From the NCBI GenBank assembly GCA_041648395.1, contig JBAZPC010000004.1, positions 1-36,791 of the forward strand: a DNA stretch of 36,791 nt. Direction: 5' to 3'. Origin of the DNA: Minisyncoccota bacterium (GTDB lineage: Bacteria; Patescibacteriota; Minisyncoccia; UBA9983). This document shows, one piece after another, positions 21,541-26,496 of the stretch. How positions within the stretch are numbered: the stretch's first letter is position 1; the number at the start of each line of letters is the position of its first letter. A program made the position numbers and the translations under genes. The notes under the pieces are model-generated. The model did not search any database and had not been told where the DNA came from. It saw only the letters and a list, made by a program, of their open reading frames with translations.

Positions 21541-21807
21541 TTAGTTTTTTGTTTCTAGTTCTAATAAATATCTTTTTATCAACATCTCTTTCTTTTCTCT
21601 GCGCCATTTTTTGAGCTGAATTTCTCTTTGCCTTGCTTCTTTTAGCGTATCATATTTCTCTTGAAAAACGAGTTCAAAACTATTTTTATTCTTAGTGAAA
21701 TTCGCCCCTTGATTTATATTGTGCGAATTAATTCTTTTATCAATATTTTTCGTAACGCCGATATAAAGCTTATTGGCGTTATTTTTTATCATGTATACGT
21801 AAAACAT
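21541..21807 (-). CDS. Small stand-alone GIY-YIG nuclease (#1, 88 aa)
   Basis: FYVYMI...LYIGVT...KRINSH...REIQLK. Confidence 0.9.
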   Translation of the reverse strand: MFYVYMIKNNANKLYIGVTKNIDKRINSHNINQGANFTKNKNSFELVFQEKYDTLKEARQREIQLKKWRREKKEMLIKRYLLELETKN

Positions 21808-21813
21808 AATTTT

Positions 21814-21896
21814 GTCCCTCGACTTCGCTCGGGACACTCGATTCGCCTATATGGCTTGCCACGAGTGAGCCCGAGTTTATGAGGGCGAATCGAGTG
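21814..21896. repeat. REP-like hairpins at tmRNA 3' end
   Basis: GTCCC-tcgacttcgctc-GGGAC (21814-21835) plus a perfect 13-bp IR CACTCGATTCGCC/GGCGAATCGAGTG (21835-21847, 21884-21896). Confidence 0.75.
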
Positions 21897-22237
21897 GAAG
21901 TGGGCGGATTTGAACCGCCGTGCAAAAAGTTTCTTAAAACAACTCTACAAGTTTGCTTCGGCTGTTTTTAATCAAGAAGTATTAGCCGAAGAAAATCTTC
22001 TTGATTTTGACCCAGTTTAATTTTGGCAAAATCCCTGAATCAAAAATTTTTGCCTATCCCAATGATGACGCCGGATTCCGCTTATTGGGAATCAGCGAAG
22101 CGGCGCCGCTTTACGCGTATGCGAAAGCGGAAATTGGTGACAAGTTTGCACTTATCGATTTTCTAAAAGTTTAGCGAGATTTTAGAATACTCGACTTGCA
22201 TGATTTAATACGTTTTTTGTCGATGCCTTTCACCCCC
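21895..22237 (-). ncRNA. ssrA: tmRNA; tag peptide ANLSPISAFAYA* at 22149-22111
   Basis: 5' GGGGGTGAAAGGCATCGAC; 3' T-arm GGCGGTTCAAATCCGCC and CACTTCCA; resume GCA codon with a hydrophobic/Ala tag; smpB upstream. Confidence 0.93.
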
Positions 22238-22404
22238 TAAAACTTTTTGCGAAGCAAAAAGTTCGGGCGACAGATTTCAGGGAAATCTGTTTAGCCCCTA
22301 AAACTATTTATTTATAAAATAGTCGGGCGACCCTAGCCCTAAACCCGACTGCAAAGCAGTCTAGGGTCGGGCGGGTTTAGCCCCTAAAACTATTTATTTA
22401 TAAA
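22234..22404. repeat. Array of alternating hairpin modules (CCCTAA...CGGG / GGGCG...TTAGCCC)
   Basis: CCC(C)TAAA at 22234, 22295, 22337, 22381; TCGGGCG at 22263, 22323, 22367; 30-bp direct repeat at 22289-22318 and 22375-22404. Confidence 0.85.
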
Positions 22405-22649
22405 TATTCTTTCAATACTTTTCTTTTTGTACGTCCACCCCAAAGGCTTTTCAAAAATCTTTCTCTATTAAATGCCCCTGCTTTATCTTGAAAATTTTCA
22501 GAATGGATAAGAACGAGTGGCCTCCTATTTTTTGTGGAAATAACATTTCCGTCGTTATGTTTTTTAATTCTATTTTCTAAATCACTCGTGCAGCCGACAT
22601 ATAATTTTTTGTCTTTTAAGCTGTAAAGTATATAAACAAAATAATCCAT
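22398..22649 (-). CDS. Small stand-alone GIY-YIG nuclease (#2, 83 aa)
   Basis: YFVYIL...LYVGCT...NRIKKH...RERFLK. Confidence 0.9.
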   Translation of the reverse strand: MDYFVYILYSLKDKKLYVGCTSDLENRIKKHNDGNVISTKNRRPLVLIHSENFQDKAGAFNRERFLKSLWGGRTKRKVLKEYL

Positions 22650-22660
22650 AACCTACTTAT

Positions 22661-22730
22661 CCCCTAAACCTCAAATCGCAAAGCGATTGAGGTCGGGCGA
22701 CAGATTTTGCTTTGCAAAATCTGTTTAGCC
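22661..22730. repeat. Two further hairpin modules between GIY-YIG #2 and smpB
   Basis: CCCCTAA-ACCTCAAATCGC-aaa-GCGATTGAGGT-CGGGCG-ACAGATTTTGC-ttt-GCAAAATCTGT-TTAGCC; includes the smpB stop codon. Confidence 0.85.
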
Positions 22731-23186: not shown

Positions 23187-23220
23187 CCCCGTAGTTAAAC
23201 CGCAGGTTTATACTTCGGGG
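23187..23220. repeat. 34-bp MITE-like hairpin with CCCCGTAGT terminus
   Basis: CCCCGTAGTTAAACC-gca-GGTTTATACTTCGGGG; termini resemble the TIRs at 25739 and 26048. Confidence 0.6.
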
Positions 23221-25187: not shown

Positions 25188-25202
25188 TAGAACCATACAC
25201 CT

Positions 25203-25274
25203 GCGTGCGTAGCTCAATGGCAGAGCACAGAGCTTATACCTCTGCGGTTGTAGGTTCGACTCCTACCGCACGCA
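25203..25274 (+). tRNA. tRNA-Ile(UAU), CCA not encoded
   Basis: Acceptor GCGTGCG/CGCACGC plus A; anticodon stem CAGAG/CTCTG with loop CT-TAT-AC; GGTTCGACTCC T-arm. Confidence 0.9.
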
Positions 25275-25315
25275 TTGTTTTTATAATAAAATTTATATAG
25301 AATAACTACATTGGA

Positions 25316-25669: not shown

Positions 25670-25698
25670 TTGACTCTTTTTTAGGCATTTGCTAGTAT
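25670..25698 (+). promoter_or_regulatory. Promoter of the rplW-rplX cluster
   Basis: TTGACT-17 nt-TAGTAT with TG extension; small GAAA-loop hairpin at about 25702-25725. Confidence 0.6.
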
Positions 25699-25738
25699 AT
25701 TTAAACGCCCTGAAAGGGGAGTTTTAATTTATAATATG

Positions 25739-26048
25739 CCCCGTAGTAGAATTTCCAATTAATTATGTTCTACAATTATGTTCTCCAAAGCCTTAAAAAT
25801 GGCAATCTATACATAGGTTATACAACAGACCTAAAAAGAAGATTAAAGGAACATAATCAAGGATTAAGCAGGTCAACAAAACCGTATAAGCCATGGAAAT
25901 TGATATATTACGAAGCATGTTTAAATGAAAAAGATGCAAAACGTCGAGAGGGTTATTTAAAAAAGACCCAAGGACAAAGATTAATGAGAAGAAGATTAAA
26001 AGAATATTTTTATCAGCTTAATCCTTAATTGGAAATTTCACTACGGGG
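25739..26048 (+). mobile_element. 310-bp TIR-bounded element carrying a GIY-YIG gene, flanked by TATG duplication
   Basis: TIRs 25739-25762 and 26025-26048 match at 22/24; TATG at 25735-25738 and 26049-26052. Confidence 0.8.
25765..26028 (+). CDS. Small stand-alone GIY-YIG nuclease (#3, 87 aa)
   Basis: FYNYVL...LYIGYT...RRLKEH...REGYLK. Confidence 0.9.
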   Translation: MFYNYVLQSLKNGNLYIGYTTDLKRRLKEHNQGLSRSTKPYKPWKLIYYEACLNEKDAKRREGYLKKTQGQRLMRRRLKEYFYQLNP

Positions 26049-26049
26049 T

Positions 26050-26496
26050 ATGGCCTTACTGGATGTTTTTAAAAAGAAAAAAGAGTCGGAATCGGAAAAA
26101 TTCGCAAGAAAGCATAAAGTCCGCCAGCTGGCGGAAGACGAAGCGAAGAAAAAAGAAAAAACCGAAGATGATTCTAAAGAAAAAAAAGTAGATAAAAAAG
26201 CGGCAAAGAAGGCCGTTGATTTGTCGTCTTCAAAAGTTTTAATCAAACCGCACGTGACGGAAAAGGCGACCTATCTTAACGAAGCGAATGTCCATGTTTT
26301 TAAAATCGCCTCCAATGCCAATAAAATAATGGTGAGACAGGCGGTGAAAAAAATTTACGGGGTCTTGCCGGAAAGGATAAATATTATAAATATCCCGGAT
26401 AAGAAAAAATTCGTGCGCGGGAAACGCGGCGCCAAAGCCGGATACAAAAAGGCCTTAGTTTATTTAAAGAAGGGAGATAAGATAGAAACGGCATAA
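26050..26496 (+). CDS. rplW: 50S ribosomal protein L23 with long charged N-terminal extension
   Basis: LIKPHVTEKA...ANKIMVRQAV...YKKALVYL; ATG 26050. Confidence 0.93.
   Translation: MALLDVFKKKKESESEKFARKHKVRQLAEDEAKKKEKTEDDSKEKKVDKKAAKKAVDLSSSKVLIKPHVTEKATYLNEANVHVFKIASNANKIMVRQAVKKIYGVLPERINIINIPDKKKFVRGKRGAKAGYKKALVYLKKGDKIETA

What the first reader, a model, noticed from the sequence alone, without database searches (positions are those of the whole stretch)
25735..26052. 310-bp transposon-like unit whose only cargo is a GIY-YIG nuclease, inserted at the rplW start codon
Seen: 24-bp TIRs (CCCCGTAGT-AG/GA-AATTTCCAATTAA, 22/24) tightly bracket the gene, with the ATG 2 nt inside the left TIR and the stop within the right TIR. 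TATG is duplicated on both sides. Removing the unit restores ...TTTATAATATG-GCC-TTA, an intact rplW start. The left ATG now opens an 8-codon uORF (MPRSRISN*, 25736-25762) ending 2 nt before the nuclease ATG, and the right ATG restarts L23. Knowledge: TIR plus TSD is the signature of DDE transposition; GIY-YIG enzymes are not known transposases. Inference: either a MITE that captured a nuclease and is mobilised in trans, or an undescribed nuclease-driven element. It inserts harmlessly by duplicating a start codon and hitchhikes on the r-protein promoter.
Basis: partly seen in the sequence, partly recalled or inferred. Interest (0 to 1): 0.88.

Follow-up and report, generated by a model that had tools for sequence, protein, structure and literature searches.

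The report
Tiny nuclease-only transposon on rplW start
A 310-base mobile DNA element that carries only an 87-residue GIY-YIG nuclease gene has landed exactly on the start codon of ribosomal protein L23 and duplicated that codon, so the gene survives. It belongs to a widespread family in ultra-small (Patescibacteria) bacteria that I did not find described in the papers I could search, and it may move without any classical transposase.

Summary
Arms of 24 bp (22/24 matching, 25739-25762 and 26025-26048) bracket an 87-aa GIY-YIG gene, and TATG stands on both sides.

**It is an insertion.** A syntenic relative (L081, 86% nt identity) has the same promoter, leader and L23 N-terminus with no element. 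Its sequence aligns without a gap to the window once the unit and one TATG are removed.

**It belongs to a family.**
- 61 of 80 homologous loci from Patescibacteria genomes carry the same arms.
- The usual duplication is 4 bp (TATG, ATGA).
- 37 of 61 sit on the first ATG of a long ORF. About 17% would be expected even if only harmless ATGs were allowed.
- All 43 ATG-type duplications run in the host gene's direction.
- Two elements that are 96.5% identical sit at unrelated genes with different duplications.

**The arms look like a folded structure.** They co-vary as a helix and always keep a non-Watson-Crick irregularity about 10 bp from the tip, on either arm. The nuclease keeps its catalytic residues and resembles UPF0213, Slx1 and the published Ssn hairpin-specific ssDNA nucleases.

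**What remains open.** No transposase was seen, but the mover is inferred, not shown. I rate the nuclease-driven reading at about 45-50% and a MITE moved in trans at about 25%. I found no published description.

The parts
25670..25698 (+). Host promoter-like site (TTGACT, 17 nt, TG-TAGTAT) that would drive the element and rplW
   Evidence: It is conserved base for base in the empty relative L081.
25707..25731 (+). Conserved host leader GCCCTGAAAGGGGAGTTTTAATTTA (small hairpin plus GGGGAG)
   Evidence: Identical in L081. A one-mismatch copy precedes the related element in L161.
25735..25738 (+). Left copy of the 4-bp target duplication TATG. Its ATG is the original rplW start and now opens the uORF.
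   Evidence: Empty site in L081.
25739..25762 (+). Left terminal inverted repeat. AG at 25748-25749 forms the conserved irregularity.
25736..25762 (+). 8-codon uORF MPRSRISN*, ending 2 nt before the nuclease ATG
25765..26028 (+). 87-aa single-domain GIY-YIG nuclease gene (Slx1/UPF0213/Ssn-like)
   Evidence: - Pfam E 4e-18.
- Invariant Y5, Y16, R26, H30, N31, E50, E62.
- Model pLDDT 92.6.
- Foldseek matches 1ZG2 and Slx1.
26025..26048 (+). Right terminal inverted repeat. TC at 26038-26039 faces AG of the left arm.
26049..26052 (+). Right copy of the duplication TATG. Its ATG (26050) is the present rplW start.
26050..26496 (+). rplW (L23) with a conserved 60-aa lysine-rich N-terminal extension
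   Evidence: PF00276 on residues 62-146. The extension has dN/dS about 0.12 against L081.

Best explanation
**What it is.** A 310-bp mobile element (25739-26048) with 24-bp terminal inverted repeats and a 4-bp target duplication (TATG). It inserted exactly on the rplW start codon of a Patescibacteria genome.

**How it is probably expressed (inferred from geometry).**
1. The element has no promoter-like site of its own on its coding strand. It is transcribed from the host promoter.
2. Ribosomes start at the original ATG and read an 8-codon uORF.
3. They stop 2 nt before the nuclease ATG and restart there.
4. They terminate inside the right arm, which opens the terminal helix.
5. They restart 21 nt later at the duplicated ATG of L23.

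**How it probably moves (inferred).** Its only gene is an 87-aa Slx1/UPF0213/Ssn-like GIY-YIG nuclease, and I take this to be the element's own mobility enzyme. In single-stranded or extruded form the two arms pair into one helix. The nuclease would recognise the conserved outer 9-10 bp plus the conserved helix irregularity and cut at the base of the helix. Cuts 4 nt apart at the target, followed by host repair and ligation, would give the 4-bp duplication.

**Shown:** the insertion, the empty allele, the family, the 4-bp duplication, the start-codon and orientation bias, the helix covariation, and the intact active site.

**Inferred:** the translational relay, and that the nuclease is the mover.
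For: **Insertion in this window**
- L081 is syntenic (ftsH, tRNA-Ile, hypothetical gene, rplW, rplB) and 86% identical in DNA. It lacks the unit at exactly this point.
- The L23 N-terminal extension is under purifying selection (dN 0.07, dS 0.59). So the ATG at 26050 is the start in use.

**Family and movement**
- 357 relatives were found in species-representative genomes, and the 80 fetched were almost all labelled or recognisable as Patescibacteria. 61 of those 80 carry the same CC..GTAG.. arms.
- L036 and L039 hold elements that are 96.5% identical. The homology starts and stops exactly at CC...GG, the flanks are unrelated, and the 4-bp duplications differ (ATGA and TATG).
- One MAG holds two copies, 92% identical, at different genes (L066, L071).
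- The closest relative (90% aa, L161) sits in the rplE leader with the duplication TTTA.

**Target**
- 37 of 61 elements sit on the first ATG of an ORF of at least 60 aa. That compares with 7.7% of all ATGs, and with 17% if only start and intergenic ATGs are tolerated (p = 6e-14).
- In 10 host proteins the Pfam domain begins at residue 1-18, within the first five residues in eight of them. They are GroES, RuvA, Def, RecR, AlaRS, TopA, L10, EF-G, MreB and SerRS.
- 43 duplications contain ATG and none contains CAT.

**Helix**
- 18 of 22 arm pairs change on both sides. There are 196 compensated cells against 76 +/- 12 in shuffles, 0 of 500 shuffles reach this, and slid controls collapse.
- The two positions about 10 bp from the tip are Watson-Crick in only 1 of 112 counted cells, across 56 elements. 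49 of 58 show an AG/GA swap, in either orientation relative to the gene (30 and 19).
- Folding as ssDNA gives z = -4.7 and as RNA z = -7.3.

**Nuclease**
- The catalytic Y, Y, R, H, E residues are invariant in 44 sequences.
- The fold matches UPF0213 (1ZG2) and Slx1, with TM 0.65.
- SsnA is a 94-aa single-domain GIY-YIG enzyme that cuts ssDNA beside hairpin repeats flanking its own gene (PMC11893778).

**Link between gene and hairpin**
- Six GIY genes without arms of their own are followed at once by 60-140-bp gene-less hairpin copies on the next start codon.
- No transposase-sized unit bounded by these arms turned up in about 0.7 Mb of loci.
Against: - No excision or insertion event was seen directly. 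The one public run that holds the locus is kept as contigs and shows only the filled form.
- GIY-YIG enzymes hydrolyse DNA and are not known to join strands (my knowledge). A ligase or repair step must be assumed.
- Characterised GIY-YIG homing and restriction enzymes leave short 3' overhangs (my knowledge), which does not obviously give a 4-bp duplication.
- Linkage of gene and arms is expected under any model, so covariation of the arms does not name the mover.
- My sample was chosen through intact GIY proteins. That inflates the apparent bias to expressed, co-oriented, start-codon sites.
I could not test whether gene-less copies occur only with a cognate nuclease, nor look for an unlinked transposase.
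- Shine-Dalgarno-like motifs are not enriched before the left ATG (6 of 43, at background level). The relay model rests on geometry alone.
Confidence: 0.48

Rival explanations
1. It is a cargo-carrying MITE, or mobile insertion cassette. The arms are the ends recognised by an unlinked, so far unseen transposase (for example a DDE enzyme that makes 4-bp duplications). The GIY-YIG gene is a selfish or stabilising passenger that does not catalyse movement.
For: - TIR plus a fixed 4-bp duplication is the classical footprint of DDE transposition.
- Gene-less copies of 60-140 bp exist.
- GIY-YIG enzymes have no known strand-transfer activity (my knowledge).
Against: - No unit with these ends carrying anything but the nuclease gene was found in 160 loci.
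- The nuclease is tied to the hairpin in two different layouts, inside the loop and directly beside a mini-hairpin. A single capture event does not predict that.
- The arms co-vary as a helix and keep a mismatch on either arm. This is unlike two protein-binding ends.
- The nuclease is under strong purifying selection across the lineages sampled, at 60-90% aa identity.
Confidence: 0.25
2. It is an Ssn-type nuclease with its recognition hairpin, and it spreads by nuclease-induced repair, recombination or homing-like copying rather than true transposition. It may be partly domesticated, for example to act on incoming or replicating single-stranded DNA. The start-codon positions would then be only the survivors.
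For: - SsnA-like size, active-site spacing and flanking inverted repeats. The authors of PMC11893778 themselves note that NTS-ssnA-NTS looks like an insertion sequence.
- The same window holds two further mini GIY-YIG genes with other hairpin repeats.
Against: - Homology between near-identical copies ends sharply at CC...GG, with different 4-bp duplications and unrelated flanks. This is a transposition footprint, not co-conversion of flanks.
- The published SRM search motif has no match in the window.
- The start-codon bias exceeds a survivorship model.
Confidence: 0.17
3. The unit acts mainly at RNA level. The long terminal stem in the mRNA would be a processing or translational-control module for rplW, and the ORF would be incidental.
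For: The RNA fold places both ATGs at the base of a very stable stem (z = -7.3).
Against: - The relative L081 expresses the same gene without it.
- The ORF is a conserved nuclease with an intact active site.
- The same unit sits at dozens of unrelated genes.
- There is no Rfam match.
Confidence: 0.05

Closest known systems
Ssn family: SsnA of Neisseria meningitidis with NTS/SRM hairpin repeats (Chenal et al. 2025, PMC11893778)
   Same: - A single-domain GIY-YIG protein of about 90 aa.
- Catalytic Tyr, Tyr, Glu at almost the same spacing (SsnA Y6, Y17, E64; here Y5, Y16, E62).
- The gene is flanked by inverted repeats, and gene-less repeat copies lie elsewhere.
- The authors note an IS-like layout.
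   Different: - Each SRM is a self-contained 20-50-nt hairpin beside the gene. Here the gene lies inside the loop of one hairpin formed by the two arms.
- A 4-bp target duplication, start-codon placement and a translational relay are not described for Ssn.
- The SRM search motif is absent here.
- Assignment to cd10448 could not be tested.
UPF0213 / COG2827 proteins (BH0048, PDB 1ZG2; EF2693, 1YWL) and the Slx1 nuclease domain
   Same: These are the best sequence and fold matches (E 1e-6; Foldseek TM 0.65 to Slx1). Slx1 is a structure-specific nuclease of branched DNA.
   Different: They are chromosomal genes without arms or duplications, and no mobility is known. Slx1 carries a RING domain and needs Slx4.
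Bacterial MITEs and mobile insertion cassettes (for example Correia elements, MIC231; from my own knowledge)
   Same: TIR plus a short duplication, no transposase inside, co-transcription with host genes, and short gene-less derivatives.
   Different: Known MITEs and MICs trace to an IS family with a transposase that shares their ends; none was found here. Start-codon targeting with rebuilding of the ATG, and a helix irregularity conserved on either arm, are not features of those elements.
IS200/IS605 and REP/RAYT systems (Y1 HUH transposases acting on ssDNA hairpins; from my own knowledge and cited in PMC11893778)
   Same: Very small elements. Folded single-strand DNA with imperfect hairpins is recognised, and gene-less hairpin repeats accompany them.
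   Different: Those elements have subterminal hairpins at each end, no terminal inverted repeats and no duplication. Their enzyme forms a covalent intermediate, whereas the enzyme here is a hydrolytic GIY-YIG nuclease.
GIY-YIG ORFs in non-intron insertions of CPR rRNA genes (Tsurumaki et al. 2024, PMC11270868)
   Same: Small GIY-YIG genes in CPR bacteria inside insertions that are not group I or II introns. The authors judged them to lie outside spread by homing.
   Different: That paper does not mention inverted repeats (no occurrence of the phrase in its text). I also saw no mention of duplications or protein-gene start codons in the passages I read. Whether those insertions are the same family was not tested.
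Free-standing GIY-YIG homing endonucleases (Seg proteins of T4, I-TevI; from my own knowledge)
   Same: A selfish GIY-YIG gene wedged between essential genes.
   Different: Homing enzymes carry a DNA-binding domain, copy themselves into the same locus of a naive allele, and have no arms or duplication. Here the same element is found at more than 35 different genes.

Membership tests
GIY-YIG nuclease superfamily (PF01541) | Domain match above the curated cut-off | tested here: met
   65.9 bits against a cut-off of 22.6, E 4e-18.
GIY-YIG nuclease superfamily (PF01541) | Catalytic Tyr, Tyr, Arg, His and Glu conserved; beta-beta-alpha-beta-alpha fold | tested here: met
   - Y5, Y16, R26, H30, N31, E50, E62 are invariant in 44 sequences.
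- The model has pLDDT 92.6 with the expected order of elements.
UPF0213 / Slx1-like branch | Closest solved relatives are UPF0213 and Slx1 | tested here: met
   - phmmer: 1ZG2 at 1.1e-6 and 1YWL at 1.4e-5.
- Foldseek: 1ZG2 first, Slx1 with TM 0.60-0.66.
Ssn family (cd10448) | Single-domain protein of about 90-100 aa with the catalytic Tyr, Tyr, Glu | tested here: met
   87 aa with Y5, Y16, E62, against SsnA's 94 aa with Y6, Y17, E64.
Ssn family (cd10448) | Gene flanked by SRM hairpins matching HGTCWY...RNCYNB | tested here: not met
   The published degenerate motif has 0 matches on either strand of the window.
Ssn family (cd10448) | CDD assignment to cd10448; site-specific cleavage of ssDNA only | not testable with these tools
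   No CDD library and no Ssn sequence were at hand. The activity needs a biochemical assay.
Insertion sequence (autonomous, transposase-encoding) | Terminal inverted repeats and a fixed-length target duplication | tested here: met
   - 24-bp arms.
- 4 bp is the modal duplication, 29 of 54.
- Boundaries and different duplications shown by L036 versus L039.
Insertion sequence (autonomous, transposase-encoding) | Encodes a recognised transposase (DDE, DEDD, HUH, Ser, Tyr) | tested here: not met
   The only ORF is the GIY-YIG gene. Pfam and NCBIfam give no transposase match.
MITE / mobile insertion cassette | A cognate autonomous element whose transposase gene shares the same ends | tested here: inconclusive
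   None was found among 160 loci.
Homing endonuclease gene (free-standing or intron-borne) | Occupies one cognate locus; no arms or duplication; an intron or intein host where present | tested here: not met
   - The element sits at dozens of different genes.
- It has arms and a duplication.
- No intron family was found in Rfam.
IS200/IS605 | Y1 HUH transposase, subterminal hairpins, no terminal repeats, no duplication | tested here: not met
   Terminal repeats and a duplication are present, and there is no HUH protein.

The most novel reading that the evidence does not exclude
A bare 87-aa GIY-YIG nuclease is the only element-encoded protein needed to move a 310-bp transposon. That would be a new mechanistic class of prokaryotic transposable element and, to my knowledge, the smallest autonomous one.

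In this reading:
- The nuclease recognises the element's two arms folded into one helix, using the conserved helix irregularity as a landmark.
- It makes cuts 4 nt apart at the helix base and at the target.
- The non-palindromic 4-nt ends (TATG) are rejoined by host ligase. This would also fix the orientation and explain why all 43 ATG-type insertions point the same way as the host gene.
- The element has evolved to land on start codons, rebuild them, and make host translation pass through its own gene.
Probability: 0.4. Interest if true: 0.95.

Novelty: new variant of a known kind. Interest (0 to 1): 0.8.

Why it matters
**If the nuclease is the mover:**
- It adds a sixth chemistry to the recognised transposase classes.
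- It sets a new lower size limit for autonomous mobile DNA.
- It offers a very small hairpin-guided DNA-cutting module, in the way the Ssn enzymes are already proposed as ssDNA tools.

**Whoever the mover is:**
- The element shows a clean way of parasitising essential genes without harming them, by inserting on the start codon, duplicating it, and passing ribosomes through the parasite's gene.
- It explains why small "GIY-YIG nuclease family protein" genes and short inverted-repeat cassettes recur in front of housekeeping genes in these genomes.
- For annotation, start codons behind such elements are easily miscalled.

Tried and rejected
- **Whole-genome tools.** I could not count copies in the window's own genome or test co-occurrence of gene-less copies with the nuclease.
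- **Reads.** Only one public run holds the locus, and it is kept as contigs. It shows no empty-site or circle junction. It does show one other contig with the same termini and 116 nt between them.
- **Rfam.** There is no intron, ribozyme or other family on the element, so an intron reading is rejected.
- **Viral contigs.** Three exact matches to the arm pattern all lie inside coding sequence, two of them probably dUTPase genes (my reading of the sequence). None has a partner arm and none encodes a GIY-YIG relative, so they are chance hits. There is no sign of phage carriage.
- **Ssn SRM motif.** No matches in the window.
- **Structure inside the element.** RNAalifold on 55 elements keeps only the terminal helix, so that is not supported for this subfamily.
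- **Shine-Dalgarno motifs.** Not enriched before the left ATG, so the relay model cannot lean on a retained ribosome-binding site.
- **Alternative boundary.** I considered arms that include ATG/TAT with no duplication. That would need a 2-nt gap against L081. L036 versus L039 place the boundaries at CC...GG with a 4-bp duplication, so it is rejected.
- **Leader as part of the element.** The promoter and leader also stand before the related element in L161, which raised this idea. L081 has the leader without the element, so it is rejected.
- **Literature.** Four full-text searches found no description of the family. Subscription journals are not covered.
Full report
**1. The observation**

The left arm CCCCGTAGTAGAATTTCCAATTAA is at 25739-25762. 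The right arm is at 26025-26048, and its reverse complement reads CCCCGTAGTGAAATTTCCAATTAA.
- The arms match at 22 of 24 positions. The only difference is a dinucleotide swap, AG versus GA.
- With up to three mismatches the pattern occurs only at these two places in 36.8 kb. No shuffle produced a match.
- TATG abuts both arms (25735-25738 and 26049-26052).
- Between the arms lies one ORF, 25765-26028, of 87 aa. It matches PF01541 GIY-YIG at E 4e-18. Its ATG is 2 nt after the left arm and its stop is inside the right arm.
- The left ATG opens MPRSRISN*, which ends 2 nt before the nuclease ATG. The right ATG (26050) opens L23 (PF00276).

**2. It is an insertion: an empty allele exists**

- A metagenome contig (L081) carries the same gene order: ftsH 3' end, tRNA-Ile, a 118-aa hypothetical gene, rplW, rplB. 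It is 86% identical in DNA and 84% identical in L23.
- Its promoter-like site and leader match the window almost base for base. It then reads TTTATACCATGGCTTTATTG with no element.
- With the unit and one TATG removed, the window aligns to L081 over 90 columns without a gap. The only differences beside the site are the two bases before the ATG (AT here, CC there).
- The 60-residue lysine-rich N-terminal extension of L23 is conserved. Of its 61 codons, 41 are identical, 13 differ only synonymously and 7 change the residue (dN 0.07, dS 0.59). So the ATG at 26050 is the start codon in use, and the element sits exactly on it.

**3. It belongs to a large family that has moved**

*Size of the family.*
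- The protein has thousands of close relatives at 60-90% identity. Every taxon named for them is a Patescibacteria group.
- A scan of species-representative genomes found 357 relatives, and I fetched 80 loci.
- At least 61 of the 80 have the same arms around the gene, of the form CC(N)GTAGTRRA... My detector missed a few more that are visible by eye.

*Element boundaries and the duplication.*
- The elements in L036 and L039 are 96.5% identical.
- Their homology starts exactly at CC and ends exactly at GG.
- Their flanks are unrelated.
- Their 4-bp direct repeats differ: ATGA at an alanyl-tRNA synthetase gene, and TATG at another gene.
- This fixes the boundaries and shows that the repeat comes from the target.

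*Other signs of movement.*
- One Buchananbacteria MAG holds two copies, 92% identical, at different genes with unrelated flanks (L066, L071).
- The closest relative of the window's protein (90% identity, L161) sits in the leader of rplE, 10 nt before the ATG, with the duplication TTTA.

*Length of the direct repeat.*
- Four bases is the modal length (29 of 54).
- The apparent 5-base repeats of the T-CCCGTAG subfamily can be read as a 4-bp TGNA duplication, with the element's last A completing the ATG.
- A minority do not fit a clean 4-bp rule.

**4. Target choice**

- After removing each element in silico, 37 of 61 sites fall on the first ATG of an ORF of at least 60 aa.
- Only 7.7% of all ATGs in the same loci do so.
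- Selection would remove insertions inside genes, so I also asked what fraction of "harmless" ATGs are gene starts, counting gene starts plus intergenic ATGs on either strand. With a crude ORF-based gene call the answer is 17%. The observed 61% differs at p = 6e-14.
- Pfam domains of ten host proteins begin at residue 1-18 counted from that ATG, within the first five residues in eight of them. The proteins are GroES, RuvA, peptide deformylase, RecR, AlaRS, topoisomerase I, L10, EF-G, MreB and SerRS. These are true N-termini of housekeeping genes.
- Orientation is absolute: 43 duplications contain ATG and none contains CAT.
- Two caveats apply. The loci were found through intact nuclease genes, which favours expressed copies. 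And some copies sit at stop codons or in leaders (TAA, TAG, TTTA).

**5. Expression**

- A promoter-like site lies at 25670-25698 (TTGACT, 17 nt, TG-TAGTAT) and is conserved in L081. No terminator-like site lies between it and the element.
- Across the family the left ATG is never fused in frame to the nuclease. Its short ORF either stops a few bases before the nuclease ATG (1-18 nt in 22 of 39 cases, 40 nt in one) or runs on in another frame.
- The nuclease stop lies a median 18.5 nt before the host ATG.
- This geometry fits termination-reinitiation. It also fits unmasking of the host ATG when ribosomes melt the terminal stem. That is inference.
- Shine-Dalgarno-like motifs are not enriched before the left ATG.

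**6. The arms behave as one helix**

- On 56 elements, 18 of 22 arm positions change on both sides while staying complementary. There are 196 compensated cells against 76 +/- 12 in shuffles. No shuffle reached this, and sliding the partner by one column halves the pairing.
- The outer 9-10 bp are conserved in sequence. The inner part varies freely but stays paired.
- The two positions about 10 bp from the tip are almost never Watson-Crick: one cell in 112 forms a Watson-Crick pair. 49 of 58 elements show the AG/GA swap, which gives A.C plus G.T. RNAalifold reads the same place as two opposed single-base bulges 2 bp apart.
- The swap lies on either arm relative to the gene (30 versus 19). So it is the irregularity that is kept, not the identity of an end.
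- This is what one expects of a folded single strand or cruciform that is recognised by its shape. Imperfect hairpins of IS200/IS605 and integron attC sites behave this way (my knowledge).
- The element folds well as ssDNA (z = -4.7) and as RNA (z = -7.3).

**7. The protein**

- Y5, Y16, G18, R26, H30, N31, E50, R61 and E62 are invariant in 44 sequences.
- The AlphaFold model is confident (pLDDT 92.6).
- The best solved relatives are the UPF0213 proteins 1ZG2 and 1YWL and the Slx1 nuclease domain.
- The nearest functional precedent is the Ssn family. SsnA is a 94-aa single-domain GIY-YIG enzyme with catalytic Y6, Y17 and E64. It binds a hairpin repeat only as ssDNA and cuts a few bases upstream. 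Its gene is flanked by such repeats, a layout its authors call identical to insertion sequences (PMC11893778).
- The published SRM motif is absent here, and I could not test CDD membership.

**8. Who moves it?**

*Points for the nuclease:*
- It is the only gene in the element.
- It is strongly conserved with an intact active site.
- No unit with these ends carried anything else in about 0.7 Mb of loci.
- The nuclease is tied to the hairpin in two layouts. It lies either inside the loop, or directly upstream of a 60-140-bp gene-less copy that sits on the next start codon (L009, L015, L017, L019, L030, L040).

*Points against:*
- No event was observed.
- GIY-YIG enzymes hydrolyse and do not join DNA.
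- I could not survey whole genomes.

I therefore put the nuclease-driven reading at a little under one half, a trans-mobilised MITE at one quarter, and an Ssn-like non-transposing module at about one sixth.

A speculative but testable detail follows from the geometry. Symmetric cuts 4 nt apart at both ends would release the element with non-palindromic TATG/CATA ends. The donor flanks would be left able to rejoin precisely. The orientation of reinsertion would be fixed, which would explain the 43:0 bias without selection.

**9. Comparison with the literature and earlier notes**

- Four full-text searches found no description of this family.
- Tsurumaki et al. 2024 noted GIY-YIG ORFs in non-intron insertions of CPR rRNA genes and judged them to lie outside homing. 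That may be the same family.
- Earlier notes of this scan describe the same family in many other genomes. I used them as leads only.
- What this window adds is an empty allele for an essential ribosomal gene, the L036/L039 boundary proof, the survivorship-corrected start-codon test, the orientation count, and the measure of the conserved helix irregularity.

**10. Verdict**

The feature is real and is a mobile insertion. It is a member of a widespread family that I did not find described. What is shown is a new variant of TIR/TSD elements with an unprecedented cargo and target. Whether it is a new class of transposon depends on experiments that remain to be done.

Noticed in passing
window 22234-22730: A second mini GIY-YIG gene (22398-22649, minus strand, 83 aa, 43% identical to the first) lies between tmRNA and smpB. 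Arrays of hairpin modules flank it on both sides, of the form CCCCTAAAAC-hairpin-TCGGGCGAC-hairpin-GTTTAGCC. The layout resembles Ssn with its repeats, but the published SRM motif does not match.
   Followed up: partly
window 21541-21896: A third mini GIY-YIG gene (minus strand, 88 aa from the ATG at 21807) starts just after two hairpins that abut the 3' end of the tmRNA gene.
   Followed up: no
window 23187-23220: A 34-bp hairpin, CCCCGTAGT...ACTTCGGGG, shares the outer 9 nt of the element's arms. It lies between the divergent smpB and ftsH starts. I saw no clear duplication. It may be a relic or a chance match.
   Followed up: partly
window 25670-25731; L161 200-267: The promoter and leader before rplW (TTGACT...TAGTAT...GCCCTGAAAGGGGAGTTTTAATTTA) recur almost unchanged before rplE in another organism, again just upstream of a related element. 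L081 has the leader without the element. So it looks like a lineage-specific leader of a fragmented ribosomal-protein cluster: rplW here follows ftsH and tRNA-Ile, not S10-L3-L4.
   Followed up: partly
window 26050-26232: L23 carries a 60-residue lysine- and glutamate-rich N-terminal extension that is conserved in L081 (dN/dS about 0.12).
   Followed up: partly
window 25202-25275: A tRNA-Ile gene with anticodon TAT (UAU), which is an uncommon way for bacteria to read AUA.
   Followed up: no
L009 2879-2940; L015 1208-1340; L017 3287-3425; L019 3267-3404; L030 3279-3401; L040 3278-3403: GIY-YIG genes that lack arms of their own are each followed at once by a 60-140-bp gene-less hairpin copy with the same termini and irregularity. 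Each copy sits on the next gene's start codon with ATGGA-type repeats.
   Followed up: partly
run X1, a 1056-nt contig laid on window 25735-25755 and 26032-26053: In the same groundwater sample, another contig at lower depth (5.9 against 19.5) carries the same termini and TATG flanks, with only 116 nt between them. This is a gene-less derivative in a different context.
   Followed up: no
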